In this document: positions 2,527 through 39,325 of the stretch, in pieces
Numbering within the stretch: the first letter of the stretch is position 1
Layout of the letters: the number at the start of each line of letters is the position of its first letter
DNA from: a virus
Length of the DNA: 39,401 nt
Strand: one strand, 5' to 3'
UHGV virus genome: UHGV-0067872
The notes under the pieces: model-generated
The model's input: only the letters and a program-made list of their open reading frames with translations
Told to the model about the DNA's origin: nothing
Databases searched by the model: none
Made by a program: the position numbers and the translations under genes

Positions 2527-2665
2527 ATCGCATTCAGATATTTGTTTTGATTCACTGATGGAAAAGAATTTCTCTTAAGCAATTCCTCTCTCGATGGCAT
2601 TGGCTTTACGCGTTGGCGAATAATCATTTCTGCCGGAAGAATGCCGGGATTGTATGCAAGTCCTC

Positions 2666-2947
2666 TCATGATTTACTCTCCGCGAACTGGTCAACAGCCG
2701 TGCTAAGTGATACACCTAAAGTCTCGATATGCTGCTGAATATCCTGTAGTGTCTGCGCCTGAGATAACAGGATTTCACGGTTGCATAACTCTTTAACCAG
2801 ATGCTCAAACTTGCTGTAATAACCGATACGACTTAGTGTTTCTTTCCCTGCATTCTCGCCTTCTTTGATAATTCCTCTTTCACTAAGAATCAGGTCGTGT
2901 TTGGTTCCGGTAATAACGTATTTTCCAAGGTCGATGTTTAGCTTCAT
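2666..2947 (-). CDS. Hypothetical protein (93 aa)
   Basis: ORF in the co-directional early gene string; no recognised motif. Confidence 0.45.
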
Positions 2948-2963
2948 TGTTAATTACTCCATG

Positions 2964-3278
2964 TTAATTTATTCGTATGCCTGCTCTTTCTTCATCGAGT
3001 TTTTTTAGCTTGTATCGCATAGCTCTTACTGAATAAATTGAGCGGCAGGTTGCAATTGCTATTTCTTCTGCGGAGAACTTACCGAAAAGTGATACTTCGG
3101 CTCTTGTCCATCGTCTTCCACGAAGTCGGCTAACAATGTCAGCGCCAATCCTTGTTGCTTTCGCCATTACTGCTTTTTCAGTCCTTTCCAGTTTTTCTGC
3201 GATAACTTCAACTGGCATTGTCGCCGCTACCTCGCGCAAGAAATCTACTTCCCATTTCTCCCATGGAGTCTTTTTCAT
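2964..3278 (-). CDS. Hypothetical protein with two internal Myb/SANT-like repeats (putative DNA-binding)
   Basis: Two internal repeats of the form W..EV.(F/L)....E.IA....R...V (residues ~6-45 and ~57-95). Confidence 0.45.
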   Translation of the reverse strand: MKKTPWEKWEVDFLREVAATMPVEVIAEKLERTEKAVMAKATRIGADIVSRLRGRRWTRAEVSLFGKFSAEEIAIATCRSIYSVRAMRYKLKKLDEERAGIRIN

Positions 3279-13427: not shown

Positions 13428-13612
13428 ACGCCACAATTCAAACGATACCAGAGCTTCTTATCCAGACACGAGGCAATCAGACCGAAGTGGCGAGGATGCT
13501 TTCCTGCGCAAGAGGAACAGTGCTCAAGTACAACCGAGACAGCAAAGGCGAGCGTCACGTAATAGTTAACGGCGTCCTGATGGTCAAACAGGGCAAGAGG
13601 GGAAGACCATGA
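13424..13612 (+). CDS. ninH: NinH-like protein
   Basis: TIPELLIQTRGNQTEVARMLSCARGTVLKY parallels lambda NinH. Confidence 0.65.
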   Translation: MNATIQTIPELLIQTRGNQTEVARMLSCARGTVLKYNRDSKGERHVIVNGVLMVKQGKRGRP

Positions 13613-14232
13613 GACTCGAAAGCGTAGCTAAATTTCATTCGCCAAAAAGCCCGATGATGAGCGACTCACCACGGGCTACGGCTTCTGACTCTCTTTCCGG
13701 TACTGATGTGATGGCTGCTATGGGGATGGCGCAATCACAAGCCGGATTCGGAATGGCTGCATTCTGTGGTAAGCACGAACTCAGCCAGAATGACAAACAA
13801 AAGGCTATCAACTATCTGATGCAATTTGCACACAAGGTATCGGGGAAATACCGTGGTGTGGCAAAGCTCGAAGGAAATACTAAGGCAAAGGTGCTGCAAG
13901 TGCTCGCAACATTCGCTTATGCGGATTATTGCCGTAGTGCCGCGACACCGGGCGCAAGATGCAGAGATTGCCACGGTACTGGCCGGGCCGTTGATATTGC
14001 CAAAACAGAGCAGTGGGGGAGAGTTGTCGAGAAAGAGTGCGGAAGATGCAAAGGCGTCGGTTATTCAAGAATGCCAGCAAGCGCTGCATATCGCGCTGTG
14101 ACGATGCTAGTACCAAACCTTACCCAACCCACCTGGTCACGCACTGTTAAGCCGCTGTATGACGCTCTGGTGGTGCAATGCCACAAAGAAGAGTCAATCG
14201 CAGACAGCATTTTGAACGCGGTCACACGTTAG
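13609..14232 (+). CDS. Q: Late antiterminator Q
   Basis: 207-aa protein MRLESVAKFHSPKSPMMSDSPRATASD... matches lambda Q as I remember it. Confidence 0.9.
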   Translation: MRLESVAKFHSPKSPMMSDSPRATASDSLSGTDVMAAMGMAQSQAGFGMAAFCGKHELSQNDKQKAINYLMQFAHKVSGKYRGVAKLEGNTKAKVLQVLATFAYADYCRSAATPGARCRDCHGTGRAVDIAKTEQWGRVVEKECGRCKGVGYSRMPASAAYRAVTMLVPNLTQPTWSRTVKPLYDALVVQCHKEESIADSILNAVTR

Positions 14233-14274: not shown

Positions 14275-14317
14275 TTGACTTTTTGAATAAAGTTGGGTAA
14301 ATTTGACCCAAGAATGG
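14275..14317 (+). promoter_or_regulatory. PR' late promoter with qut element
   Basis: -35 TTGACT (14275-14280), 17-bp spacer, -10 TAAATT (14298-14303), then AAGAAT pause-inducing -10-like element. Confidence 0.6.
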
Positions 14318-14995
14318 CAGATTTATATCCGTTCACATTCTTTCAGCTTTTACCCACCTCATCTTTAAGTTCTAAGCGCACTGACATGCGCATCATAAAC
14401 TCGAGAGCACATAGGAATAGAGCCTGAGAAATATCGCTTTTGGCGACTTCTCTCGTGGTGATATTTCTATGTCAGCAGGCTCTAATATCTATGTGGTTCG
14501 CCTATGTTAAAACGTGAAGATGCATTGAGACTTTTTAATTACAATCCAGATACTGGAATTCTTACATGGAAGAATCCACCTCGGTCCTCTAGATTTATCT
14601 ATGGCGCTGTTGTTGGCTATAAAACAAATGGATATCTGCAGGTAAAACTTTATGGAATGCGGCTATATGTCCATAGAATTGCATGGCTGATGGTTTACAA
14701 TGATTGGCCAACCGATGTTATTGACCATATTAATGGTGATAGGTCTGATAACCGGATAGCCAATCTTCGTGTTGTTACTAACACTCAAAACTCATGGAAC
14801 AGCAAGATGAGGAAAAACAATTCATCTGGTGTGAAGGGGGTGACTTTTAATTCTGCTGCAAACAAGTGGGTTGGAAGAATTAGAGTTAATGGTAAAAGGA
14901 TTCATGTAGGGTGTTTTGACGATATCGAGGAGGCTAGAAAGGCAATGGAAAATGCCAGGATAAAATATCATGGTGAATTCTCCAGTATGGGATAG
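14318..14995 (+). mobile_element. Freestanding homing-endonuclease cassette inserted into the PR'/6S leader
   Basis: AT-rich block between the PR' initial transcribed region and the 6S-like sequence resuming at 14996; ATGG microhomology at both junctions; contains the HNH ORF ending exactly at the right junction. Confidence 0.5.
14504..14995 (+). CDS. HNH endonuclease with AP2 DNA-binding domain (homing-endonuclease-like)
   Basis: HNH motif HINGDRSDNRIANLRVVTNTQNSWN; AP2-like GVKGVTFNSAANKWVGRIRVNGKRIHVGCFDDIEEARKAMENARIKYHGEF. Confidence 0.85.
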   Translation: MLKREDALRLFNYNPDTGILTWKNPPRSSRFIYGAVVGYKTNGYLQVKLYGMRLYVHRIAWLMVYNDWPTDVIDHINGDRSDNRIANLRVVTNTQNSWNSKMRKNNSSGVKGVTFNSAANKWVGRIRVNGKRIHVGCFDDIEEARKAMENARIKYHGEFSSMG

Positions 14996-15125
14996 ATGGG
15001 TTAATTCGCTCGTTGTGGTAGTGAGATAAAAAGAGGCGGCGCTTACTACCGATTCCGCCTAGTTGGTCACTTCGACGTATCGTCTGGAACTCCAACCATC
15101 GCGGGCTGAGAGGTCTGCAAAATGC

Positions 15126-15186
15126 AATCCCGAAACAGTTCGCAGGTAATAGTTAGAGCCTGCATAACGGTTTCGGGATTTTTTAT
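15126..15186 (+). terminator. tR'-like rho-independent terminator (end of 6S-type RNA)
   Basis: Long hairpin AATCCCGAAAC...GTTTCGGGATT with nested GCAGG/CCTGC stem, followed by T6. Confidence 0.7.
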
Positions 15187-15210
15187 ATCTGTGCAACAGG
15201 TAAGAGCATT

Positions 15211-15609
15211 CTCCCTTATGGGGCTTGGCTTAAATGCACTGAGTGCTCTTATCGTTGTGGCAGCACAACGATAGTTTTCGTCAGAGTTGGCGACTTTGCG
15301 GGTTTTTAGAAACTGACCACAAAGATAAATGCAAACGATGATTTGATGTTGATGGCGGCCTAAGAAACCAAAATCACGGGGTCTTCCGACTCCCCGCTAC
15401 CAAATTCGGCGCACTGGCCCGGTGTGATTAATAATGGGCACCCATTCAAACGTACCCTCGGCAGGTTCGATTCCTGACTAGACCCAGATGGCGACGGGGA
15501 GGGTCCAATTGAGTGGGTAACAACGGGCATGTCGCCTTAGTAAATCCCTCAAGGGTGCGACGCATAGACCGGTACTAGCGTCGCCGTTAGCTCCACGAAA
15601 CGGAGCGCA
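15211..15609. other. ORF-free, GC-rich, hairpin-dense segment bounded by a 17-bp direct repeat
   Basis: Direct repeats CAACAGGTAAGAGCATT (15194-15210) and CAACAGGTAAGAGTATT (15610-15626); no ORF of 60 aa or more except one implausible minus-strand frame; perfect 10-bp-stem hairpin at 15250-15273. Confidence 0.3.
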
Positions 15610-16017
15610 CAACAGGTAAGAGTATTTGTAGAGTTCGACTCTCTACCGTGGGCTTTTTCCCGCGATGCGAGCCATAAATGCTCTTTCCGTTGTGCTGAAT
15701 TAAGCGAATGCCGGAAGCAGAACCGGATCACCAAATGCGTACAGGCGTCATCGCCGCCCAGCAACAGCACAACCCAAACTGAGCCGTAGCCACTGGTTAT
15801 CCTGAACTCATCAGTGATAGTTACGCTGCGGCCTTCTACACATGACCTTCGTGAAAGCGGGTGGCAAGAAGTTGCGCTAACAACCTCCTGCCGTTTTGCC
15901 CGTGCATATCGGTCACGAACAAATCTGATTACTAAACACAGTAGCCTGGATTTGTTCTATCAGTAATCGACCTTATTCCTAATTAAATAGAGCAAATCCC
16001 CTTATTGGGGGTAAGAC

Positions 16018-16341
16018 ATGAAGATGCCAGAAAAACATGACCTGTTAGCCGCCATTCTCGCGGCAAAGGAACAAGGCATCGGGGCAATCCTTGCGTTTGC
16101 AATGGCGTACCTTCGCGGCAGATATAATGGCGGTGCGTTTACAAAAACAGTAATCGACGCAACGATGTGCGCCATTATCGCCTGGTTCATTCGTGACCTT
16201 CTCGACTTCGCCGGACTAAGTAGCAATCTCGCTTATATAACGAGCGTGTTCATCGGCTACATCGGTACTGACTCGATTGGTTCGCTTATCAAACGCTTCG
16301 CTGCTAAAAAAGCCGGAGTAGAAGATGGTGGAAATCAATAA
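16018..16341 (+). CDS. S: Holin S (dual-start S107/S105)
   Basis: [34 protein letters not shown]... matches lambda S; tandem starts ATG-AAG-ATG. Confidence 0.95.
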
Positions 16342-16801
16342 TCAACGTAAGGCGTTCCTCGATATGCTGGCGTGGTCAGAGGGAACAGATAACGGACGAC
16401 AGAAAACCAGAAATCATGGTTATGACGTCATTGTTGGCGGAGAGCTATTCACTGATTACTCCGATCACCCTCGCAAACTTGTCACGCTAAACCCCAAACT
16501 CAAATCAACAGCAGCCGGACGTTACCAGCTTCTTTCCCGTTGGTGGGATGCCTATCGCAAGCAGCTCGGACTGAAAGACTTCTCTCCGAAAAGCCAGGAC
16601 GCTGTGGCACTGCAACAGATTAAAGAGCGTGGCGCTTTACCGATGATTGATCGCGGTGATATCCGTCAGGCAATTGACCGTTGCAGCAATATCTGGGCTT
16701 CACTGCCTGGCGCTGGTTATGGTCAGTTCGAGCATAAGGCTGACAGCCTGATTGCAAAATTCAAAGAAGCAGGCGGAACGGTCAGAGAGATTGAGGTATG
16801 A
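16325..16801 (+). CDS. R: Endolysin R (lytic transglycosylase)
   Basis: [26 protein letters not shown]... matches lambda R. Confidence 0.95.
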
Positions 16802-17235
16802 GCAGAGTCACCGCGATTATCTCCGCTCTGATTATCTGCATCGTCGTCTGTCTGTCATGGGCTGTTAATCATTACCGTGATAACGCCATCGCCTACAAAG
16901 ACCAGCGCGATAAAGCCACATCCATCATCGCTGACATGCAGAAGCGTCAACGTGATGTAGCAGAACTCGACGCCAGATACACAAAGGAGCTTGCTGATGC
17001 TAACGCGACTATCGAAAGTCTCCGTGCTGATGTTTCTGCTGGTCGTAAGCGCCTGCAAGTCTCCGCAACCTGTGCAAAGTCAACGACCGGAGCCAGCAGC
17101 ATGGGCGATGGAGAAAGCCCAAGACTTACAGCAGATGCTGAACTCAATTATTACCGTCTCAGAAGTGGAATCGACAGGATAACCGCGCAGGTTAACTACC
17201 TGCAGGAGTACATCAGGACGCAATGCCTTCGATGA
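16798..17235 (+). CDS. Rz: Spanin inner-membrane subunit Rz
   Basis: N-terminus [31 protein letters not shown] as lambda Rz; C-terminal half divergent. Confidence 0.85.
16991..17182 (+). CDS. Rz1: Spanin outer-membrane lipoprotein Rz1, nested in +1 frame within Rz
   Basis: Signal peptide plus lipobox-like LVVSAC, Pro-rich mature part; embedded like lambda Rz1. Confidence 0.65.
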
Positions 17236-17410
17236 TAGCGATAATTTTACTCATCATCCTTCACATCTGGCTCTGTAGACAGGGTGGTGATCACTTCTGG
17301 AGTAAATCCAGATTAAACATCTCATTGCTGATGCTTGATATTGAGCATCTGGCGCGCAGTAAGGGGCTGCGTTGAGATAAGAGCCAGTCATTACAAACAC
17401 CAGGATTTAG

Positions 17411-17435
17411 CCTCGCATTCGCGGGGTTTTTTATT
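17411..17435 (+). terminator. Putative rho-independent terminator after the lysis cassette
   Basis: CCTCGC-ATTC-GCGGGG followed by TTTTTTATT. Confidence 0.5.
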
Positions 17436-17456
17436 CCCAACTCCATAGGTAATTTT

Positions 17457-17936
17457 ATGACCCAGCATATTGGCGTAAAACTGATTAACGCCTTTCCGAT
17501 GACGAGACAGGCATATAACGATTTTCGTGGCTGGCAGCTTCCTGCCGGAGAAAACGGCGAGGACGAAGGCTATCTGGTTGAATATCTGGATGGCGGAAAA
17601 CCTAACACCGATCGCTTTGATGGCTACGTTAGCTGGAGTCCAAAAGAAGTATTCGAAAAGGCTTATCGTCCGGTATCAGGACTAAGTTTCGGCCTTGCCA
17701 TGGAAGCGTTAAAACAGGGCAAAAGTTTGCAGCGGGCAGGATGGAATGGGAAAGACCAGTTTGTTTATCTCGTGAAAGGGGAAAAATTAGCGTCTGCGTT
17801 GGGTTATGGCTTTGGCGAATATGTTGGCGAGCCAACTTTCAATGACACGCTTGTATTGAAAAACTCACAGAACCGCCTTGCTACATGGGTTCCATCCATT
17901 GGCGACCTGATGGCTGAAGACTGGCAAATCATTTAA
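17457..17936 (+). CDS. Hypothetical protein with C-terminal DUF2829/Tad2-like domain
   Basis: C-terminal half has AMEALKQGKSLQRAGWNGK...FVYLV...WVPSIGDLMAEDWQII, matching my recollection of the DUF2829 consensus; N-terminal 75 aa unassigned. Confidence 0.5.
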   Translation: MTQHIGVKLINAFPMTRQAYNDFRGWQLPAGENGEDEGYLVEYLDGGKPNTDRFDGYVSWSPKEVFEKAYRPVSGLSFGLAMEALKQGKSLQRAGWNGKDQFVYLVKGEKLASALGYGFGEYVGEPTFNDTLVLKNSQNRLATWVPSIGDLMAEDWQII

Positions 17937-18169
17937 CCATGTAGTCATTACAAAGCCCATCAACGGGTGGGCTTGATAATGAAACCGGAATTTATTCTAG
18001 GCAACCAGTTACGGCAGTACCACGAAACAACCCAAGCCAGTAAGTGGGGAAATAACACTGGCAGCCACTGAAAGATGAACCTCCTGCCTTATGGCAAAAA
18101 AGATTCTTTGTGGTGGCGGACTGATGGAAAGACATCCTAATCAAGCAACCACTCCACAGGGTCATAATT

Positions 18170-18550
18170 ATGAACGACCAGCAAATCGAAAAAGAAATCG
18201 TTGAGAAAGGCAAAACGGCACCGCGAATCACCCCGCAGCACATCGAAGACGTGATTAAAAGCGAGCATTACTTTACTGCTTATGATGGACGAAATGGTGC
18301 CATTTCCAGCAACGAATATTGTGGCAGGGAAAAACCAGAAGAAGGCGATCGTGATTTATCACCATTGAAGTTGCTCACTTTCTGCGTACTGGTGCTGAAG
18401 AATGGCTTCACCGTCACCGGAGAGAGTGCCTGTGCAAGCCCGGAAAACTTTGATGCAGAAATTGGTCGGAAGATTGCCCGGCAAAATGCTGTAAACAAAA
18501 TCTGGATGCTCGAAGGTTACTTGCTGAAGCAGAAGCTAAGCGAACAGTAG
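18170..18550 (+). CDS. Conserved phage protein, possibly Gp49-like
   Basis: 126-aa ORF; motif GESACASPENFDAEIGRKIARQNA recalled from phage Gp49-like proteins; tentative. Confidence 0.4.
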   Translation: MNDQQIEKEIVEKGKTAPRITPQHIEDVIKSEHYFTAYDGRNGAISSNEYCGREKPEEGDRDLSPLKLLTFCVLVLKNGFTVTGESACASPENFDAEIGRKIARQNAVNKIWMLEGYLLKQKLSEQ

Positions 18551-18606
18551 TTATTACAAAAGCCATTCCCTACAGAGTGGCTTTGATAATGGCTTATACC
18601 CTACAC

Positions 18607-18633
18607 GGGATATCTTAACTGATATCCCTTTTA
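18607..18633 (+). terminator. Putative terminator hairpin
   Basis: Perfect inverted repeat GGGATATC-TTAACT-GATATCCC followed by TTTT. Confidence 0.5.
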
Positions 18634-18653
18634 ACGGATAAACGGAGCCAACA

Positions 18654-18896
18654 ATGGCAGAGATTATTCCCATGACTGAAGAACAGAAATTCCAGTTAGA
18701 GATTTACAAACTGGTCATGAACCAGAACGCAGCCGCAGAAGAAGCATTTCAGTTCATTGGCACTGACGAGCTGAAGCTTGAGCTATTCAAAATTCACTTC
18801 CAGTCAGGTGGCGCTAATTCAGATATCACGACGCGCACTATCGAAGCGGTGCGTAAATCTAAGGAAGCGTTAGACCTGTTCACTACCGGAGCATAA
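18654..18896 (+). CDS. Hypothetical protein (80 aa) preceding terminase
   Basis: ORF with SD GGAG; position like small ORFs before TerS in P22-like phages. Confidence 0.45.
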   Translation: MAEIIPMTEEQKFQLEIYKLVMNQNAAAEEAFQFIGTDELKLELFKIHFQSGGANSDITTRTIEAVRKSKEALDLFTTGA

Positions 18897-18898
18897 AC

Positions 18899-19339
18899 AT
18901 GGCGCGCCCAACAAAGTATCAAGAGGCGTATGCCGAACAGGCACGCAAACTGTGCTTGCTGGGCTACACCGATGCAGAGCTTGCTGATTTCTTCGAAGTC
19001 AGTGAGTCAACTATTAACAAGTGGAAGCTTGATTATCCTAAGTTTTCGGAGTCCATAAAAAAGGGTAAGGCCGTCGCTGATGCAGAAGTTAGTGATCGTC
19101 TTTATCAACGCGCTATGGGCTTCGTGGCTCCAGACATCGATATTCGTGTTATTGAAAACAGAATTGTCGAAACTCCGCTTGAGAAGTATTACCCGCCTGA
19201 TACAACAGCTGCCATCTTCTGGCTTAAGAACCGACAGAAGGATAAATGGCGCGACAAGGTTGATCACGAGCTAACAGGCAAAGACGGCGGCGCAATTCAG
19301 ATTGAAACATCACCGATGAGCACTCTATTCGGAAAATGA
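18899..19339 (+). CDS. Terminase small subunit (Sf6 gp1-like)
   Basis: C-terminus ELTGKDGGAIQIETSPMSTLFGK matches my recollection of Sf6 small terminase; N-terminal HTH-like segment. Confidence 0.75.
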   Translation: MARPTKYQEAYAEQARKLCLLGYTDAELADFFEVSESTINKWKLDYPKFSESIKKGKAVADAEVSDRLYQRAMGFVAPDIDIRVIENRIVETPLEKYYPPDTTAAIFWLKNRQKDKWRDKVDHELTGKDGGAIQIETSPMSTLFGK

Positions 19340-20751
19340 CCACGATTAATCCTATCTTTGAACCGTTCATTGAGGCGCATCGCTACAAAGTCGCCAAAGG
19401 CGGTCGAGGTAGCGGTAAGTCATGGGCAATTGCGAGGCTGCTTGTTGAAGCGGCGCGTCGGCAGCCTGTGCGCATACTTTGCGCTCGTGAGCTGCAAAAC
19501 AGTATCAGCGATTCGGTAATCCGGCTGCTTGAAGATACCATCGAGCGTGAAGGGTATTCGGCTGAGTTTGAAATTCAGCGTTCCATGATTCGTCATCTCG
19601 GAACGAATGCTGAGTTCATGTTCTACGGCATCAAAAACAACCCGACGAAGATTAAATCGCTAGAAGGTATTGATATCTGCTGGGTGGAGGAAGCGGAAGC
19701 GGTAACGAAGGAATCATGGGATATCCTGATACCAACCATCCGCAAGCCGTTTTCCGAAATATGGGTGAGCTTTAACCCTAAGAACATCCTCGACGATACC
19801 TATCAGCGATTCGTTGTAAATCCTCCCGATGATATTTGTCTGCTGACGGTGAACTACACCGACAACCCGCACTTTCCTGAAGTTCTCCGTCTGGAGATGG
19901 AAGAGTGTAAACGCAGAAATCCGACACTGTATCGTCACATCTGGCTTGGTGAGCCAGTGAGCGCAAGTGATATGGCAATCATCAAACGTGAATGGCTTGA
20001 AGCCGCAACCGATGCGCACAAGAAACTCGGATGGAAGGCGAAAGGCGCTGTTGTCTCTGCGCATGACCCGTCAGATACAGGACCGGATGCTAAAGGTTAT
20101 GCATCGCGCCACGGTTCGGTAGTTAAGCGCATTGCCGAAGGCCTGCTGATGGACATCAATGAAGGTGCTGACTGGGCAACTTCGCTGGCGATTGAAGACG
20201 GCTCTGACCACTACCTGTGGGATGGTGATGGTGTTGGTGCCGGGCTACGCAGACAGACAACGGAAGCGTTCTCCGGCAAGAAAATCACCGCCACGATGTT
20301 CAAGGGCAGCGAATCGCCATTCGATGAAGATGCGCCATATCAGGCCGGAGCATGGGCTGATGAAGTCGTACAGGGCGACAATGTTCGCACTATTGGCGAT
20401 GTATTCCGCAATAAGCGAGCGCAATTCTATTACGCGCTGGCTGACAGGCTGTATCTGACATATCGGGCGGTTGTTCACGGTGAGTATGCAGACCCAGACG
20501 ACATGCTGAGTTTCGACAAAGAAGCGATAGGCGAGAAGATGCTGGAGAAGCTGTTTGCAGAACTGACGCAGATTCAGCGCAAATTCAATAACAACGGGAA
20601 GCTGGAGCTTATGACTAAGGTCGAAATGAAACAGAAGCTCGGGATTCCATCTCCTAACCTGGCTGATGCGCTGATGATGTGTATGCATTGCCCGGAGTCG
20701 GCTGCGCAACCCGACTATTCCAGTTACTCAATTCCTTGTGGTGTAGGTTGA
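19336..20751 (+). CDS. Terminase large subunit
   Basis: Walker A KGGRGSGKS near N-terminus; size 471 aa; follows TerS with 4-nt overlap. Confidence 0.9.
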   Translation: MTTINPIFEPFIEAHRYKVAKGGRGSGKSWAIARLLVEAARRQPVRILCARELQNSISDSVIRLLEDTIEREGYSAEFEIQRSMIRHLGTNAEFMFYGIKNNPTKIKSLEGIDICWVEEAEAVTKESWDILIPTIRKPFSEIWVSFNPKNILDDTYQRFVVNPPDDICLLTVNYTDNPHFPEVLRLEMEECKRRNPTLYRHIWLGEPVSASDMAIIKREWLEAATDAHKKLGWKAKGAVVSAHDPSDTGPDAKGYASRHGSVVKRIAEGLLMDINEGADWATSLAIEDGSDHYLWDGDGVGAGLRRQTTEAFSGKKITATMFKGSESPFDEDAPYQAGAWADEVVQGDNVRTIGDVFRNKRAQFYYALADRLYLTYRAVVHGEYADPDDMLSFDKEAIGEKMLEKLFAELTQIQRKFNNNGKLELMTKVEMKQKLGIPSPNLADALMMCMHCPESAAQPDYSSYSIPCGVG

Positions 20752-35880: not shown

Positions 35881-35891
35881 CCAATTCACTA

Positions 35892-35916
35892 AACCCAGCT
35901 TCTGCTGGGTTTTTTA
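35892..35916 (+). terminator. Rho-independent terminator
   Basis: ACCCAGC-TTCT-GCTGGGT followed by T6. Confidence 0.65.
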
Positions 35917-35973: not shown

Positions 35974-38025
35974 ATGACAGATTCAATAAATGCCAATGTT
36001 GTTGTTTCACAACCAAGTCAGTTATTCACTTTAGCTCGCTCGTTTAAAGCAAATGCTAATGGCAAAATTTATATCGGTAAAATTGATACTGACCCGGTAA
36101 ATCCTGAAAACCAGATTCCGGTTTATGTAGAGAACGAAGACGGTTCTCACGTTCCTGTTTCGCAACCAATCATCATTAACGCTGCTGGTTACCCGGTATA
36201 TAACGGACAGATTGCCAAGTTCGTTACTGTACAGGGCCATTCTATGGCTGTTTATGATGCGTATGGGGCACAGCAGTTTTATTTTCCAAATGTGCTGAAG
36301 TATGATCCGGATCAGCTAAGACATGAGCTAGCGTCGGAAGCGGGAACAACTTTAATAGGGAAGGGTGATCGAACTCTTGAAGAGTACTTAGAATCAAGCA
36401 AGGAAGATTTTGATAACTCATGGAAGAGATATGTAGGTAAATCTACAACGACACAAAAAGATAGCGCATACTCTGGAGCGGCTCACTACCAACCAGTTAG
36501 CGATGATGGGAGCACAATTGGTAATTATACATTTGAATCACCGGTGATTGTTGACTTCTCATCTACATCAGATTGTGTTATGCCAGATTCTGGTGTCGTT
36601 TTCAAAATGGGAGCTAATGGACTTACAAGTGGTAATTATTTTTCTCAAGATAATTACCACTTAAAAAATGTAACGGCAATTGGCGGTACCCCTGAAATTG
36701 TTACATTTGAACCATACACAGGATTGACAGCACTAGTAGATGGTGTTCGTATTATAAATAATGGCTCTCCAGACAAGACCGCTATTAATTTTAAAGGACA
36801 GAACTGGTGGCCTACAGTATCTAATAATATATTTAAAGATTATACAGATAAAAGAGGAAATTTTTGCAAGGCAATAGATGACGGAGGAGATTCATCTATA
36901 AGAAGGAGTGGGAATAGTAGATTGCTTTTCACTGGAAATAAAGTCTACTTTGGTGGGGATGCTCTTGGTGGTACGATGTTGAAAGCCAGCGCTGTCTTTA
37001 ATATTATAAAAGATAATGCCTGTGAACACGGAGAGAACGCGATTGTGTTTGAGTACCCATCATCATTCTCAGTTATCGACGGACTTTACACAGAATGTTC
37101 TTTTGGTGGTGGTAATCAGATAGTAATTGGTGACAAAGAACCTGATCCTAATATTGCAACAATGAATATGATTGGAATAACTATTAAGAATGTTTATTTC
37201 AATAATCATTCACATTCATCAAATAGGCTAATCAAATCTGGAAATGAAACCGTAAGAATAGACAGGTTAATTGTTGATAATATAATTGTCACAAATGCAA
37301 ATGTTGCATCGCCAGTTATTGAGTTGAATGATGTTCCTGGGCAATCGATTTGTGTCGGAAATGTATACTCTGGAGTTTCACTAATAAATAAAACAAGCAA
37401 TGCTGTAAAAATAATAGATATGAATAATAATTTTATTAAATCGCTAAATGGTAATTTAGCGTCTTCGGGGGGGGACTCCGCAACAGTAAATAATTCTAGA
37501 GAAAAAGTATTTGGTAACTTTTTTATTCAATCAACAGGAAGTTTGTCAGTTAGCAGATATGCAAGTGGTAATCAGTATCAAAAAAATAGAGAGTCAAAGA
37601 ACTACGCGGCTATAACCATAGCTCCTAATACTTCGTGCGGTTTTGAGTGGCAGAACCCAAGATATTCAGACCTATCTGGATCTACAGCAACAGTTCAGTT
37701 TCTAGCCAAAGCAAGCACTACAGTGAGTGCAGTAGTTTTAGTTAAATACAAGAACAGTTCTGGAGGTGACACGCTTGCAGCATCATCAATTAGTATTAAT
37801 GGTGGTGATTTTCAGGAGTTTACTATTCCATTCTTTGCTAACCGCAATGATGATGATGATTCTGTTCTCTCTGTTGATATTAGATTTGAAAATACATTAT
37901 CAAGCATTGTTTTTTATATTTGTGCTTTTAGATTAAACAGGGGGGATACAGGACTATGCCGGTCTGCTAATGATTATACGACAGGAGAGATTGATGCAGA
38001 GATATCAAAATTCACATTTTATTAA
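35974..38025 (+). CDS. Tailspike protein with P22-type N-terminal head-binding domain
   Basis: N-terminal ~115 aa closely parallels the P22 tailspike head-binding domain; the remainder is unrelated and AT-rich. Confidence 0.9.
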
Positions 38026-38122: not shown

Positions 38123-39280
38123 TCACTCCACCTTTTCATCAAGCCAGTCCGCCCACCACTGCATCATTTCTCTGCGCTTATCGAGATACTGCGCATGGTT
38201 GTAAATACCGCGCACAGATCCGCCGTTGGCATGTGCCAGTTGCATTTCAATAGCATCAGCAGGCCATTCGTTCTCGTTCATAATCGTGCTGAATTCATGC
38301 CTGAATCCGTGACCGCTTTCCAGACCCTCATAGCCGATTTGTTTGATCACAAGCAATACCGCGTTCTCGCAGATTGGCTTCTTCTTATCGTTGCGCCCGG
38401 CAAAAACAAACTCTGATACTGGTTTGGTGATTGAGCTTAGCGTAGTGAGAAGCTCAACCACCTGGTCTGACATAGGAACAACATGAATCTTGCGGCCCTT
38501 CATCACACTGGCGTCGATGGTGATAATCCTGTTATCAAAATCGACGTTCTTCCATAGCATGGAACGAAGCTCTTTTGTTCTTAGGGCTGTGTAGCGTAAA
38601 ACTTTGGTCGCAATGAGCGATACGATACTTCCTGAAAATGTTGCCAGTGCTTTGTTGAATGCCGGGATCTGGTCTGCAGGAAGAAACGGGAAGTTCTTCT
38701 TGCGGTACCCCTTCATGGCGTCAGCAAGGTCAGGTGCCGGGTTATATTTAGCCCTGCCGGTGACAATAGCGTAACGGAAAACCTCGCCGCATCTTCTGCG
38801 GGCTTTATTTGCTCGCTCCATTGCACCGCGATCTTCAAATCTGCGGATTACTTCCAGCAGTTGCATCGGCTCAATCTCCTGAATTTCAAGGCCGCCGATG
38901 ATAGGTAAAATGTCGTCATCAAACATTTTTGCAAGTTCAGTCGCATACCCTACTGACCATACTTGCTTCTTGTGCTCGTACCATTCCTTGTAAATCGCAC
39001 TAAAGGAATTGTTGTTAGACGAAGCCTTTTTCGCCTTTACCGGATCGATGCCAACCGAGATGTCTTTCCTCGCAGTCCATGCCTTATCCCTTGCCTCCTG
39101 CAAAGTCATTAGCGGATATTTTCCTACGGTCAGGATTTTCTCCTTACCGTCAATCTTGTAGCGAAGCTGCCATACCTTTTTCCCGGATACAGGGACATAA
39201 AGGTACAGGCCATTACCATCGAGAAGGCGGTATGGTTTTTCTTTCGGCTTTGCTGCTTCAATCTGCTTAACAGTGAGCAT
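38123..39280 (-). CDS. int: Tyrosine integrase
   Basis: Track ORF 38123..39316 (GTG); I prefer ATG 39280 giving MLTVKQIEAAKPKEKPYRLLDGNGLYLYV; C-terminal HGFRHEF...IYNHAQY catalytic region. Confidence 0.9.
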   Translation of the reverse strand: MLTVKQIEAAKPKEKPYRLLDGNGLYLYVPVSGKKVWQLRYKIDGKEKILTVGKYPLMTLQEARDKAWTARKDISVGIDPVKAKKASSNNNSFSAIYKEWYEHKKQVWSVGYATELAKMFDDDILPIIGGLEIQEIEPMQLLEVIRRFEDRGAMERANKARRRCGEVFRYAIVTGRAKYNPAPDLADAMKGYRKKNFPFLPADQIPAFNKALATFSGSIVSLIATKVLRYTALRTKELRSMLWKNVDFDNRIITIDASVMKGRKIHVVPMSDQVVELLTTLSSITKPVSEFVFAGRNDKKKPICENAVLLVIKQIGYEGLESGHGFRHEFSTIMNENEWPADAIEMQLAHANGGSVRGIYNHAQYLDKRREMMQWWADWLDEKVE

Positions 39281-39325
39281 GGGTAAAAATCCGGTGGGTA
39301 AAATTATTTTATCCACTTTTTACCC
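39281..39325. repeat. Three TTTTACCC octamers (two on minus, one on plus) just upstream of int
   Basis: GGGTAAAA at 39281-39288 and 39296-39303; TTTTACCC at 39318-39325; same octamer as the tandem repeat at 114-137. Confidence 0.55.

What the first reader, a model, noticed from the sequence alone, without database searches (positions are those of the whole stretch)
17388..18640. Post-lysis moron locus: DUF2829/Tad2-like domain protein and Gp49-like protein
After the Rz terminator, where lambda has bor, sit two single-gene units. The first (17457-17936) has a C-terminal half resembling the DUF2829 fold used by Tad2-type cyclic-nucleotide sponges that counter Thoeris, fused to an unassigned 75-aa N-terminal region. 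The second (18170-18550) is a Gp49-like protein. Each unit is followed by a similar imperfect palindrome of about 40 bp (ATTACAAAGCC...GGCTTGATAATG at 17946-17980 and 18553-18591), and the motif TCATTACAAA recurs three times (about 17388, 17945, 18552). This suggests a modular cassette site carrying an anti-defence gene.
Basis: partly seen in the sequence, partly recalled or inferred. Interest (0 to 1): 0.58.

Follow-up and report, generated by a model that had tools for sequence, protein, structure and literature searches.

The report
Two immune-signal sponge genes, hairpin-bounded
Between the lysis and DNA-packaging genes of this P22-like E. coli phage sit two genes predicted to soak up the alarm molecules of the bacterial Thoeris and CBASS defences; each ends in a conserved RNA hairpin that marks where phages swap such genes, and the first carries an extra, undescribed domain that other phages fuse to at least three, possibly four, known families of such "sponges".

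Summary
ORF1 (17457-17936) has an unassigned 74-aa N-terminal domain. Its C-terminal domain is a clear Tad2/DUF2829 homologue (Pfam E 6e-22; SPO1 Tad2 E 3e-26), and the four main gcADPR contacts are invariant. ORF2 (18170-18550) is the orthologue of Sf6 gp66. The locus therefore carries two predicted immune-signal sponges inside the Q-dependent late operon. No promoter was detected, so these are not strict morons.

The two palindromes are real two-tier hairpins. They belong to an enterobacterial-phage family with strong covariation and fold on the mRNA strand (57 G·T against 4 A·C). They start a few bases after the stop codons of more than 20 unrelated gene families and coincide with mosaic breakpoints. 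The ORF1 cassette is flanked by CATTACAAA direct repeats, and Sf6 shows the empty site.

The most novel lead is the N-terminal domain. It has about 2,650 representatives. It occurs alone, or fused in many combinations with Tad2, Acb4 and Sequestin, and once with an Acb2/Tad1 domain. It has no Pfam model and no close structural match. It is a candidate new sponge module.

All functions are inferred.

The parts
17223..17375 (+). 50-aa hydrophobic ORF overlapping the end of Rz (Sf6 gene 65 homologue). It is the left neighbour of the cassette slot.
   Evidence: Sf6 gene 65 sits at the same place; cluster C2.
17388..17397 (+). Left half-site TCATTACAAA. It matches the left outer arm of the hairpin, has no right arm, and forms the left copy of the direct repeat flanking the ORF1 cassette.
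   Evidence: In Sf6 this half-site is joined directly to hairpin B (GCCAGTTCATTACAAA|GCCTATCTACGGGTGGGCTTGATAATG).
17409..17435 (+). Canonical intrinsic terminator (8-bp stem plus TTTTTTAT). It is shared by all filled versions of the slot examined here (HK620, epsilon34, Huey).
   Evidence: The epsilon34 record annotates the equivalent as a Rho-independent terminator.
17457..17678 (+). ORF1 N-terminal domain (aa 1-74). Small beta/alpha domain with no Pfam model. Candidate new sponge or accessory module.
17679..17936 (+). ORF1 C-terminal Tad2/DUF2829 domain (aa 75-159) plus stop codon. Predicted sponge for Thoeris signals (gcADPR / 3'cADPR, possibly His-ADPR).
17945..17982 (+). Hairpin B. Two tiers: outer stem TCATTA/TAATGA, a 2x2 internal loop CA/GA, and a 9-bp GC-rich inner stem. 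It begins 8 nt after the ORF1 stop codon.
   Evidence: 60.1 bits, E 1.8e-9.
17983..18169 (+). 187-nt non-coding spacer between hairpin B and ORF2, conserved in relatives. No promoter-like site was found.
18170..18550 (+). ORF2, 126 aa. Acb4 family (PF13876) and orthologue of Sf6 gp66. Predicted sponge for CBASS cyclic dinucleotides.
18551..18592 (+). Hairpin C. Same two-tier design as hairpin B but with a different 10-bp inner stem. It starts directly after the ORF2 TAG stop codon.
   Evidence: 38.3 bits, E 2.7e-5.
18607..18632 (+). Small perfect hairpin GGGATATC-ttaact-GATATCCC followed by TTTT, upstream of the DUF2560 gene. Possibly a weak terminator.
   Evidence: Read directly from the sequence; inverted repeat I2. 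Not flagged by the terminator scan.
18654..18896 (+). DUF2560 gene (P22 orf80 / HK620 hkbM / Sf6 gene 67 homologue). It is the right-hand conserved anchor of the variable region, just before the small terminase gene.

Best explanation
The window is a mosaic P22-like (Lederbergvirus) temperate phage of E. coli. Between its lysis genes and its packaging genes, inside the Q-antiterminated late operon, it carries an exchangeable accessory segment with two genes for immune-signal 'sponges'.

ORF1 is a two-domain protein. Its C-terminal Tad2 domain should assemble into a tetramer and sequester the TIR-made Thoeris signal (1''-3' gcADPR, also called 3'cADPR, and possibly His-ADPR). Its N-terminal 74-aa domain is an independent, very conserved module of unknown ligand or partner.

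ORF2 is an Acb4-family protein (Sf6 gp66 orthologue). It should form a tetramer and sequester CBASS cyclic dinucleotides: 3'3'-cGAMP, and probably 3'3'-c-di-AMP, as reported for homologues from phages of Gram-negative hosts.

Each gene is closed by a two-tier hairpin that folds in the mRNA. The hairpins most likely act as leaky terminators or 3'-end stabilisers within the late transcript. The same roughly 40 nt follows many unrelated accessory genes in enterobacterial phages, so it also provides the homology at which cassettes are gained, lost and swapped.

Shown here: family membership, conserved contact residues, hairpin structure and strand bias, cassette polymorphism, and breakpoints at the hairpin.

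Inferred: ligand binding, anti-defence activity, timing of expression, and the molecular role of the hairpin.
For: Tad2 domain:
- Pfam PF11195, E 6.4e-22.
- SPO1 Tad2 (8sme/8wje), E about 3e-26 over aa 75-159, ungapped.
- AF2 model pLDDT 89.7. Foldseek top hits are all Tad2 structures, including the gcADPR and His-ADPR complexes (E down to 7e-9, target-normalised TM 0.8-0.93).
- SPO1 contacts W25, N26, W73 and D79 map to W96, N97, W144 and D150. These, and S147, are invariant in 47 homologues.

Acb4 family:
- PF13876, 120.8 bits.
- A profile of ORF2 relatives reaches the solved Acb4 structure 9e4w at E 1.2e-7.
- The Acb4 paper equates the family with PF13876. All 8 tested homologues bound 3'3'-cGAMP, and those from phages of Gram-negative hosts also bound cAA.

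Gene pairing:
- 25 of 80 NTD-Tad2 loci found by protein homology have an Acb4 gene directly adjacent.
- Tad2-Acb4 fusions are reported, and one of them blocks both Thoeris and CBASS (PMC12265669).

Late-operon context:
- Q gene at 13609-14232 and a promoter-like site at 14275-14303.
- No + strand promoter in 16800-19400.

Hairpins:
- 30 distinct variants are 99.7% paired. Six pairs show changes on both sides. 0 of 500 shuffles reach any measure.
- A strand-neutral count gives 248 Watson-Crick, 57 G.T and 4 A.C pairs.
- The hairpin lies 2-16 nt after the stop codons of 23 clusters of upstream ORFs.
- All 25 covariance-model hits in 411 kb of unbiased loci are on the + strand at gene 3' ends.
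- Canonical T-run terminators occupy the same position in more distant homologous loci.
- Homology breakpoints fall at the hairpin (query positions 741-752) and inside its loop (L207 group).
- The Sf6 empty site equals the left repeat plus hairpin B.
Against: - No experiment exists on these proteins.
- Secondary Tad2 contacts differ from SPO1: T78 to G149, T65 to N136, D67 to Q138, H71 to A142.
- Only 3 of 8 mapped Acb4 contacts are identical: F80, F94 and I98. E49, V56, Y57 and T70 are replaced.
- Late-operon expression is unusual, because SPO1 sponges act early.
- The hairpins lack the U-run of a strong terminator and were not called by the terminator scan.
- The outer arms were fixed by my search pattern in the covariation set. 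Their conservation is shown independently only by the protein-anchored loci.
- G.T asymmetry would also fit folding as + strand single-stranded DNA.
Confidence: 0.68

Rival explanations
1. ORF1 (and ORF2) are anti-CRISPR proteins of the AcrIIA7 type, as annotated in phage Huey.
For: Huey annotates both homologues as 'anti-CRISPR protein'. PDB hits include AcrIIA7 entries (8kbi at E 4e-6, 9kzr at E 1.6e-5).
Against: The AcrIIA7 protein of 8kbi is HgmTad2. Li et al. could not reproduce any Cas9 inhibition and showed that it binds gcADPR and cyclic dinucleotides; a second group notes the same. ORF1 is far closer to SPO1 Tad2 (E 3e-26) than to AcrIIA7. From my own knowledge, E. coli does not carry type II-A Cas9 systems. 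ORF2 has no Acr homology at all.
Confidence: 0.04
2. The palindromes are ordinary Rho-independent terminators of independently transcribed morons. Their mutual similarity reflects only common descent, with no role in recombination and no special two-tier structure.
For: They have GC-rich stems directly after stop codons. Canonical T-run terminators sit at the same position in other homologous loci. The upstream A-tract and downstream T-rich tail resemble bidirectional terminators. They fold on the mRNA strand.
Against: There is no U-run: the tails are UUGAUAAU and UUUGAUAAU, and neither was called. No promoters define separate units. The outer AU stem and the CA/GA internal loop are kept across different inner stems, and are even replaced compensatorily (L232 and L237), which a simple terminator does not need. 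Mosaic breakpoints coincide with the element or fall inside it.
Confidence: 0.2
3. The hairpins are attC-like recombination sites. They would fold as single-stranded DNA and be used by a site-specific recombinase to insert and excise gene cassettes, as in an integron.
For: An imperfect palindrome with conserved outer 'core' sequences and a variable centre follows each cassette. A 9-10-bp direct repeat CATTACAAA flanks the ORF1 cassette, and the empty site exists in Sf6. The strand-biased G.T pairs are also compatible with ssDNA folding.
Against: No IntI-type integrase or attI lies nearby. The only integrase (38123-39316) is the prophage integrase, about 20 kb away. The left junction is a half-site fused to a terminator, not a second full site. 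The same hairpin also follows structural genes such as a 250-aa tail-like protein (cluster C5). Flanking homology usually extends beyond the hairpin, as expected for general homologous recombination.
Confidence: 0.05
4. The N-terminal domain of ORF1 is not a ligand-binding sponge. It would be an accessory module, for example an oligomerisation or scaffold domain, or a domain that binds a host protein such as RNA polymerase or a defence effector, and it is reused by sponge proteins.
Confidence: 0.3

Closest known systems
Tad2 of Bacillus phage SPO1 (gp34.65; PDB 8SME/8SMF/8SMG; Pfam PF11195/DUF2829)
   Same: ORF1 aa 75-159 aligns without gaps at roughly 50% identity (E 3e-26). The predicted fold is the same. 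The main gcADPR contacts W25, N26, W73, D79 and S76 are conserved.
   Different: ORF1 carries an extra 74-aa N-terminal domain. The adenine-side and water-coordinating residues differ (T78G, T65N, D67Q, H71A). It is encoded in the late operon of a temperate Gram-negative phage rather than expressed early in a lytic Bacillus myovirus. It has no long beta2-beta3 insertion, so the cyclic-dinucleotide site of HgmTad2 is not expected.
Acb4 of phage SPO1 (PDB 9E4W) and the PF13876 family (N4 gp49 / Sf6 gp66)
   Same: ORF2 differs from Sf6 gp66 at a single residue among 126. Sf6 gp66 is the protein the Pfam family is named after. ORF2 scores 120.8 bits, and a profile reaches 9E4W at E 1.2e-7. The ENFxxEIGR core and F48, F62 and I66 are kept.
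   Different: ORF2 is 30 aa longer. The extra sequence is a lineage-specific, hypervariable insertion at about aa 40-67. The guanine-reading E49, and V56, Y57 and T70, are replaced, so ligand preference may differ. Homologues from phages of Gram-negative hosts also bind cAA.
Fused sponges and 'guilt by fusion' (Acb4-Tad2 of Pasteurella phage Pm86; Sequestin, PF21825); preprint PMC12265669
   Same: The same two sponge families are combined. Here they are adjacent genes; elsewhere they overlap (ATGA) or are fused. The ORF1 N-domain shows the fusion pattern that identified Sequestin.
   Different: In this phage the two sponges are separate genes, divided by a hairpin and a 187-nt spacer. The N-domain has no Pfam model, so a Pfam-based fusion screen could not see it. 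It is beta/alpha, not helical like Sequestin and not a beta-rich hexamer like Lockin.
Morons of lambdoid phages (HK97/HK022 concept) and the 'boundary sequences' of HK620 and Sf6
   Same: These are extra genes, present or absent among otherwise collinear relatives, at a fixed junction after the lysis genes. Short conserved sequences sit at the module borders. The Sf6 record itself annotates a 'bsq7; boundary sequence' nearby.
   Different: No own promoter was detected. The boundary element here is a structured, strand-specific hairpin with covariation, not just a conserved linear sequence. It carries no feature of its own in the records examined: most list nothing under the match, and a few list only a hypothetical-protein CDS.
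Integron attC sites
   Same: An imperfect palindrome with conserved ends and a variable middle follows each cassette, with strand-biased folding.
   Different: There is no integron integrase or attI. One junction is only a half-site. The element also follows structural genes. See the rival explanation.

Membership tests
Tad2 (PF11195 / DUF2829) immune-signal sponge | Match to the family profile above the curated cut-off | tested here: met
   78.3 bits against a cut-off of 25, E 6.4e-22, covering profile positions 2-73 of 73.
Tad2 (PF11195 / DUF2829) immune-signal sponge | Same fold as solved Tad2 structures | tested here: met
   AF2 model pLDDT 89.7. The top 24 Foldseek PDB hits are all Tad2/AcrIIA7 entries, with target-normalised TM up to 0.93.
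Tad2 (PF11195 / DUF2829) immune-signal sponge | Main gcADPR-contact residues (SPO1 W25, N26, W73, D79) | tested here: met
   They map to W96, N97, W144 and D150, which are invariant across 47 homologues.
Tad2 (PF11195 / DUF2829) immune-signal sponge | Adenine-side and water-coordinating residues (SPO1 T78, T65, I63, D67, H71, S76) | tested here: inconclusive
   S76 to S147 is kept and I63 to L134 is conservative. T78 to G149, T65 to N136, D67 to Q138 and H71 to A142 differ. Most homologues in A1 have SQTD where the window has SIGD.
Tad2 (PF11195 / DUF2829) immune-signal sponge | Homotetramer that binds gcADPR and cancels Thoeris defence | not testable with these tools
   Needs multimer modelling, binding assays and plaque assays.
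Acb4 (PF13876) anti-CBASS sponge | Match to the family profile above the curated cut-off | tested here: met
   120.8 bits against a cut-off of 27, E 3.4e-35, covering profile positions 1-82 of 82. ORF2 is the orthologue of Sf6 gp66.
Acb4 (PF13876) anti-CBASS sponge | Detectable homology to the solved founding member (9E4W) | tested here: met
   Single sequence E 0.007. A profile of 15 relatives gives E 1.2e-7 in one stretch, positions 26-90 against chain residues 14-80.
Acb4 (PF13876) anti-CBASS sponge | 3'3'-cGAMP contact residues of SPO1 Acb4 (F48, E49, V56, Y57, F62, N63, I66, T70) | tested here: inconclusive
   F80, F94 and I98 are conserved. The others are T81, C88, A89, D95 and I102 (alignment, residue list). 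N63 contacts the ligand through its backbone.
Acb4 (PF13876) anti-CBASS sponge | Tetramer that binds cyclic dinucleotides and cancels CBASS | not testable with these tools
   All 8 tested family members bound cGAMP. This protein has not been tested.
Moron (independent transcription unit in a prophage) | Own promoter upstream of the gene | tested here: not met
   No sigma-70-like site on the + strand in 16800-19400. Only 28 nt separate the terminator from the ORF1 start codon.
Moron (independent transcription unit in a prophage) | Presence/absence polymorphism among collinear relatives | tested here: met
   Sf6 lacks ORF1. HK620, epsilon34 and others carry different genes in the slot.
Intrinsic (Rho-independent) terminator | GC-rich stem-loop followed by a U-run (at least 5 U in 8) | tested here: not met
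   The stems are present, but the tails are UUGAUAAU and UUUGAUAAU. Neither hairpin was listed by the terminator scan, whereas the 17409-17428 terminator was.
Structured RNA element (conserved hairpin family) | Covariation that supports the pairs, with strand specificity | tested here: met
   99.7% of cells are paired. Six pairs show changes on both sides. 0 of 500 shuffles reach any measure, and slid controls give at most 52% pairing. The strand-neutral count is 57 G.T against 4 A.C. There is no Rfam match.
Integron attC site | Adjacent IntI integrase and attI; full sites on both sides of each cassette | tested here: not met
   The only integrase is the prophage integrase at 38123-39316. The left junction of the ORF1 cassette is a half-site.
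Phage immune-signal sponge, generic (for the ORF1 N-domain) | Short protein that also exists alone, is phage-borne, and recurs fused to known sponges | tested here: met
   Stand-alone 73-79-aa forms exist. Among 143 representatives, 47 also have Tad2, 38 Sequestin, 15 Acb4 and 1 an Acb2/Tad1 hairpin domain. The domain order is combinatorial.
Phage immune-signal sponge, generic (for the ORF1 N-domain) | Homo-oligomer with inter-subunit pockets that binds an immune nucleotide | not testable with these tools
   Only a monomer model could be made (pLDDT 94.3). There is no ligand or multimer prediction.

The most novel reading that the evidence does not exclude
The 74-aa N-terminal domain of ORF1 is a previously unrecognised family of phage immune-signal sponge, or an obligate partner module of sponges. 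It would be one more 'bead' that phages string together with Tad2, Acb4, Sequestin and Acb2/Tad1-type domains to neutralise several signalling defences at once. It would have escaped the published fusion-based search because it has no Pfam model.

In addition, the two-tier hairpin would be the shared punctuation element that lets enterobacterial temperate phages trade such anti-defence cassettes.
Probability: 0.35. Interest if true: 0.78.

Novelty: new variant of a known kind. Interest (0 to 1): 0.6.

Why it matters
Sponges that sequester immune nucleotides are a major way for phages to escape Thoeris, CBASS, Pycsar and type III CRISPR. New families have mostly been found by chance or by looking at what is fused to known ones.

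This locus shows three things:
1. Very common E. coli, Shigella and Salmonella prophages (the exact proteins occur on at least 1,000 contigs each, the counting cap) carry a Tad2 plus Acb4 pair in a defined, exchangeable late-operon slot.
2. A large uncharacterised domain family (about 2,650 representatives at 50% identity) has the fusion signature of a sponge. It can be tested directly with a ligand panel.
3. A conserved, unannotated mRNA hairpin marks the 3' ends of accessory genes and the mosaic joints in at least 145 sequenced phages. This gives a concrete handle on how lambdoid and P22-like phages shuffle accessory and anti-defence genes. It also offers a simple sequence tag for finding further accessory cassettes.

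If the sponges are active, they also matter for phage-therapy host range and for interpreting defence-system screens done in lysogenic E. coli strains.

Tried and rejected
- Rfam scan of 17200-18950 at E up to 1: no family.
- NCBIfam on ORF1, ORF2, the DUF2560 protein and the 50-aa ORF: no hits.
- tRNA/tmRNA scan of the window: none.
- Promoter scan: nothing on the + strand near either gene. The 'independent moron' reading was therefore dropped.
- First gapped pattern for the palindrome (ATTACAAARCC...GGCTTTGATAAT): too strict, 0 hits.
- Test of whether the N-domain is a diverged Tad2 duplicate: hhalign probability 0.3%. Rejected.
- Descriptions of Lockin and Sequestin do not fit the N-domain fold. 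TadIV-1 (T4) is described as structurally distinct, and no PDB entry matched the N-domain by sequence.
- Supplementary tables of the 2025 sponge preprint are not held, so I could not check whether the N-domain was among its untested or negative candidates.
- Literature searches for boundary sequences in HK620/Sf6 and for further named sponges found nothing relevant.
- Designer WD40 'WRAP-T' hits in the profile-against-PDB search are sums of weak repeat matches, with no single stretch passing. They were discarded.
- The anti-CRISPR annotation in phage Huey was rejected on the published negative data.
Full report
CONTEXT

The 39.4-kb window is a complete, mosaic P22-like (Lederbergvirus) temperate phage or prophage of E. 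coli. Its gene order is:
- integrase (38123-39316, minus strand) and the early genes;
- a Q antiterminator (13609-14232, PF03589);
- a promoter-like site just after Q (14275-14303);
- holin, endolysin and Rz/Rz1 (16018-17235);
- the locus in question;
- a DUF2560 gene;
- small and large terminase, followed by the virion genes.

No sequenced phage matches more than 57% of the first 25 kb. The closest relatives at the locus are phages Huey, IME10, HZ41 and Sf6. The locus therefore lies inside the Q-dependent late operon, and all its genes are on the + strand.

CHECK OF THE OBSERVATION

- ORF1 (17457-17936, 159 aa) matches the Tad2-like Pfam model only in aa 77-159 (E 6.4e-22). Nothing is assigned to aa 1-74.
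- ORF2 (18170-18550, 126 aa) matches Phage_gp49_66 (E 3.4e-35).
- Two inverted repeats follow the genes, at 17945-17982 and 18553-18590. As RNA they fold at -19.1 and -20.6 kcal/mol, and no shuffle out of 200 does as well.
- TYATTACAAA occurs exactly three times in the window, all on the + strand within this 1.2-kb stretch. The expectation is 0.26.
- A covariance model of the hairpin finds only these two copies in the 39 kb.

ORF1, C-TERMINAL DOMAIN

Residues 75-159 align without gaps to Tad2 of Bacillus phage SPO1 (gp34.65) at E about 3e-26. They also match ModTad2 and, more weakly, HgmTad2/AcrIIA7 and SptTad2. An AlphaFold2 model built on 47 homologues has a mean pLDDT of 89.7. Its top 24 Foldseek matches in the PDB are all Tad2-family structures, including complexes with 1''-3' gcADPR, 1''-2' gcADPR and His-ADPR.

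The published SPO1 contacts map by a constant offset of +71.
- W25, N26, W73 and D79 become W96, N97, W144 and D150. These, and S76 (S147), are invariant in the homologue alignment.
- The minor contacts differ: T78 to G, T65 to N, D67 to Q, H71 to A.

Family membership is therefore solid. The main pocket is conserved, but fine specificity cannot be read off. The 'anti-CRISPR' label that phage Huey gives both genes traces back to AcrIIA7, whose Cas9 inhibition could not be reproduced.

ORF2

ORF2 differs at one residue from Sf6 gene 66 protein, which is one of the two proteins PF13876 is named after. Chang et al. (bioRxiv 10.1101/2024.12.30.630793) showed that SPO1 Acb4 is a tetrameric sponge for 3'3'-cGAMP and related CBASS signals. 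They showed that it belongs to PF13876. All eight homologues they tested bind cGAMP, and those from phages of Gram-negative hosts also bind 3'3'-cAA.

ORF2 alone reaches the Acb4 crystal structure at E 0.007. A profile of 15 relatives reaches it at E 1.2e-7. Of eight mapped ligand contacts, three are identical (F80, F94, I98) and five differ.

Among E. coli phage relatives the N-terminal 38 and C-terminal 60 residues are almost invariant. A central segment (about aa 40-67), which is absent from short family members, is hypervariable in both sequence and length.

THE TWO GENES AS A PAIR

I fetched 80 loci by protein homology to ORF1, so they were not selected for neighbours. Of these, 25 have an Acb4-family gene directly adjacent, on either side and often with overlapping stop and start codons. 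Five have an adjacent or fused Sequestin domain.

A 2025 preprint (PMC12265669) reports that Tad2 and Acb4 are frequently fused. It also reports that one such fusion cancels both Thoeris and CBASS. The window's arrangement is the unfused version of that recurrent combination.

THE N-TERMINAL DOMAIN OF ORF1

This is the least expected part.
- Conservation. The domain is more conserved than the Tad2 domain. Invariant or near-invariant residues include K8, R17, Y20, N21, R24, W26, P29, the GYLVEYxDGG motif, N50 and the GYxSWSP motif.
- Stand-alone forms. It exists as a 73-79-aa protein, for example in Erwinia phage phiEaP8.
- Family size. A profile search of 1.84 billion representatives finds 2,657 proteins at E up to 1e-3, and 1,302 at E up to 1e-10.
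- Partner domains. Of the best 143, Pfam finds Tad2 in 47, PF21825 (Sequestin) in 38, Acb4 in 15 and an Acb2/Tad1 hairpin domain in one.
- Domain order. The domain sits at the N-terminal, middle or C-terminal position, including in triple fusions such as Acb4-NTD-Sequestin.
- Fold. A model of the domain alone is confident (pLDDT 94.3). It is a small beta/alpha domain.

This is the same 'fused to known sponges, also found alone, phage-borne' signature that led to the discovery of Sequestin. That search used Pfam families, however, and this domain has none. I could not find it described in the papers available to me. I could not check that preprint's candidate tables. Whether it binds a nucleotide or a protein remains open.

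THE HAIRPINS

Both have the same design:
- an outer AU stem (ATTA/TAAT plus flanking pairs);
- a 2x2 internal loop (CA/GA);
- a GC-rich inner stem of 9-10 bp whose sequence differs between the two copies.

Two scans of IMG/VR for the outer arms gave 43 distinct GC-rich variants. An alignment of 30 variants of equal length gives 99.7% pairing and six pairs with changes on both sides. No shuffle out of 500 reaches any measure, and slid controls pair at 52% at most.

With a filter that treats G.T and A.C alike, the stems contain 248 Watson-Crick, 57 G.T and 4 A.C positions. The structure is therefore selected on the + strand, which is the mRNA strand. The outer arms were fixed by the search pattern, so their conservation needs an independent sample. 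In the 80 protein-anchored loci:
- the model finds 25 hits, all on the + strand and all at the 3' end of the Tad2-like or Acb4-like gene, and none elsewhere in 411 kb;
- two diverged lineages keep the two-tier design through compensatory changes, AAAG/CTTT becoming GAAG/CTTC in L232 and ATTA/TAAT becoming TTTC/GAAA in L237;
- several more distant loci have a canonical T-run terminator at the same position.

The hairpin starts 2-16 nt after the stop codon of 23 clusters of upstream ORFs. These include Rha, KilA-N, hkbL, a tail-like protein and several small proteins, one of which resembles Sequestin by eye. Hairpin B alone is present in 145 phage records, covering both P22-like and lambda-like phages of Escherichia, Salmonella, Shigella, Klebsiella and Enterobacter. 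It is almost never annotated. There is no Rfam match.

CASSETTE STRUCTURE

After the small gene that follows Rz, Sf6 reads GCCAGTTCATTACAAA|GCCTATCTACGGGTGGGCTTGATAATG. The window reads GCCAGTCATTACAAA|CACCAGGATTTAG, then a terminator, then ORF1, then GTAGTCATTACAAA|GCCCATCAACGGGTGGGCTTGATAATG.

HK620 has the same two junctions around hkbK and hkbL. Epsilon34, with a GIY-YIG gene in the slot, shares the left half-site and terminator, but no full hairpin was found there.

The first slot is therefore filled or emptied between two copies of CATTACAAA. In the loci examined its contents include nothing, Rha-type genes, KilA-N plus hkbL, GIY-YIG, other small genes, and NTD-Tad2. The second slot, between hairpins B and C, holds variants of the Acb4 gene.

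BLAST homology to other phages starts or stops at the hairpin. In one group of loci the sequence switches to another module in the hairpin loop.

The simplest reading has two parts. The hairpin is kept for an RNA-level function. Because it is a shared 35-45-nt sequence, it is also where general recombination joins modules. A dedicated site-specific system is unlikely, since no recombinase is nearby and one junction is only a half-site.

EXPRESSION

The scan found no sigma-70-like promoter on the + strand between 16800 and 19400. Only 28 nt separate the strong terminator at 17409-17428 from the ORF1 start codon. The genes are therefore most likely read as part of the antiterminated late transcript, so 'moron' in the strict sense is not supported. 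This is an inference from a consensus scan, not a measurement.

VERDICT

The finding is real and its interpretation is largely right. The sponge genes are new members of known families. ORF2's family assignment to Acb4 upgrades the locus to a two-sponge anti-defence segment. The extra domain of ORF1 and the hairpin-punctuated cassette organisation are, as far as I could search, undescribed. All functional statements are inferences from homology, conservation and context.

Noticed in passing
window 14504-14995 (+): A 163-aa ORF with HNH_3 plus AP2 domains (homing-endonuclease type) sits between the Q gene with its late promoter-like site and the holin gene, that is, in the leader of the late operon. 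One of the 143 N-domain representatives also carries HNH_3 and AP2 hits.
   Followed up: partly
window 18287-18370 (ORF2 aa ~40-67): Among E. coli and Salmonella phage relatives the two ends of the Acb4-like protein are almost invariant. This central segment exists in at least six unrelated sequence and length variants (proteins of 112-126 aa). It is absent from short family members of 95-102 aa. It looks like a swapped or diversifying loop; its role is unknown.
   Followed up: partly
L251, L253, L271 (Acb4-like ORFs) and protein P0220: A Cys-rich C-terminal tail, DDDFPLGxACDLSGEGxCEACQ, is appended to some Acb4-like proteins and, in a similar form (DDFPLGVACDAAGLGEACEGCQ), to an N-domain protein. 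It may be another small shared module, perhaps metal-binding.
   Followed up: no
L207, L210, L214, L215 (about position 2990): In these four loci the hairpin after the Tad2-like gene is cut in its loop (ATTACAAAGCCTAT|ACCTTAATG...). A different downstream module follows, and no right arm is found in the locus. This is a mosaic joint inside the element.
   Followed up: partly
window 18607-18632 (+): A perfect 8-bp hairpin GGGATATC-ttaact-GATATCCC followed by TTTT lies between hairpin C and the DUF2560 gene. The sequence immediately after hairpin C (GGCTTATACCCTACACGGGATA), which runs into the hairpin's left arm, is identical in the relatives examined. It was not called by the terminator scan.
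   Followed up: no
window 35891-35912 (+): A terminator-like hairpin AAACCCAGCttctGCTGGGTTT lies just upstream of the tailspike gene (35974-38025). It is a weak, inner-stem-only match to the hairpin model (14.5 bits, E 0.93).
   Followed up: no
window 15000-16000, compared with L002 1-76: Sf6 carries a tRNA-Thr gene upstream of its holin gene. This window has no tRNA or tmRNA gene at all. It has about 1 kb without a convincing ORF before the holin gene, including a strong terminator-like hairpin at 15249-15274.
   Followed up: no
L001 (phage Huey) 1758-2258 and 2493-2873; L006 (vB_EcoP-611R6) 2603-3043: There are annotation problems in public records. Huey labels both the Tad2-like and the Acb4-like gene 'anti-CRISPR protein'. 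611R6 labels the small-terminase homologue 'HNH homing endonuclease' (compare phrog_309 terminase small subunit).
   Followed up: partly
L095 (ORF ending about 9 nt before the hairpin at 2301): A 64-aa protein (MQAHQQRVVDEQTELQDKATKLAEFIKSSPIF...) that precedes a variant hairpin resembles, by eye, the Sequestin/PF21825 region of P0236. If confirmed, the hairpin would tag a third sponge family. It was not scanned against Pfam.
   Followed up: no
BFVD hit A0A0B4ZZN3 (Yersinia phage vB_YenM_TG1, 208 aa): A protein named 'Ryanodine receptor Ryr domain-containing protein' matches the N-domain model at 32% identity (E 1.7e-4). This is a further possible fusion partner of the domain.
   Followed up: no
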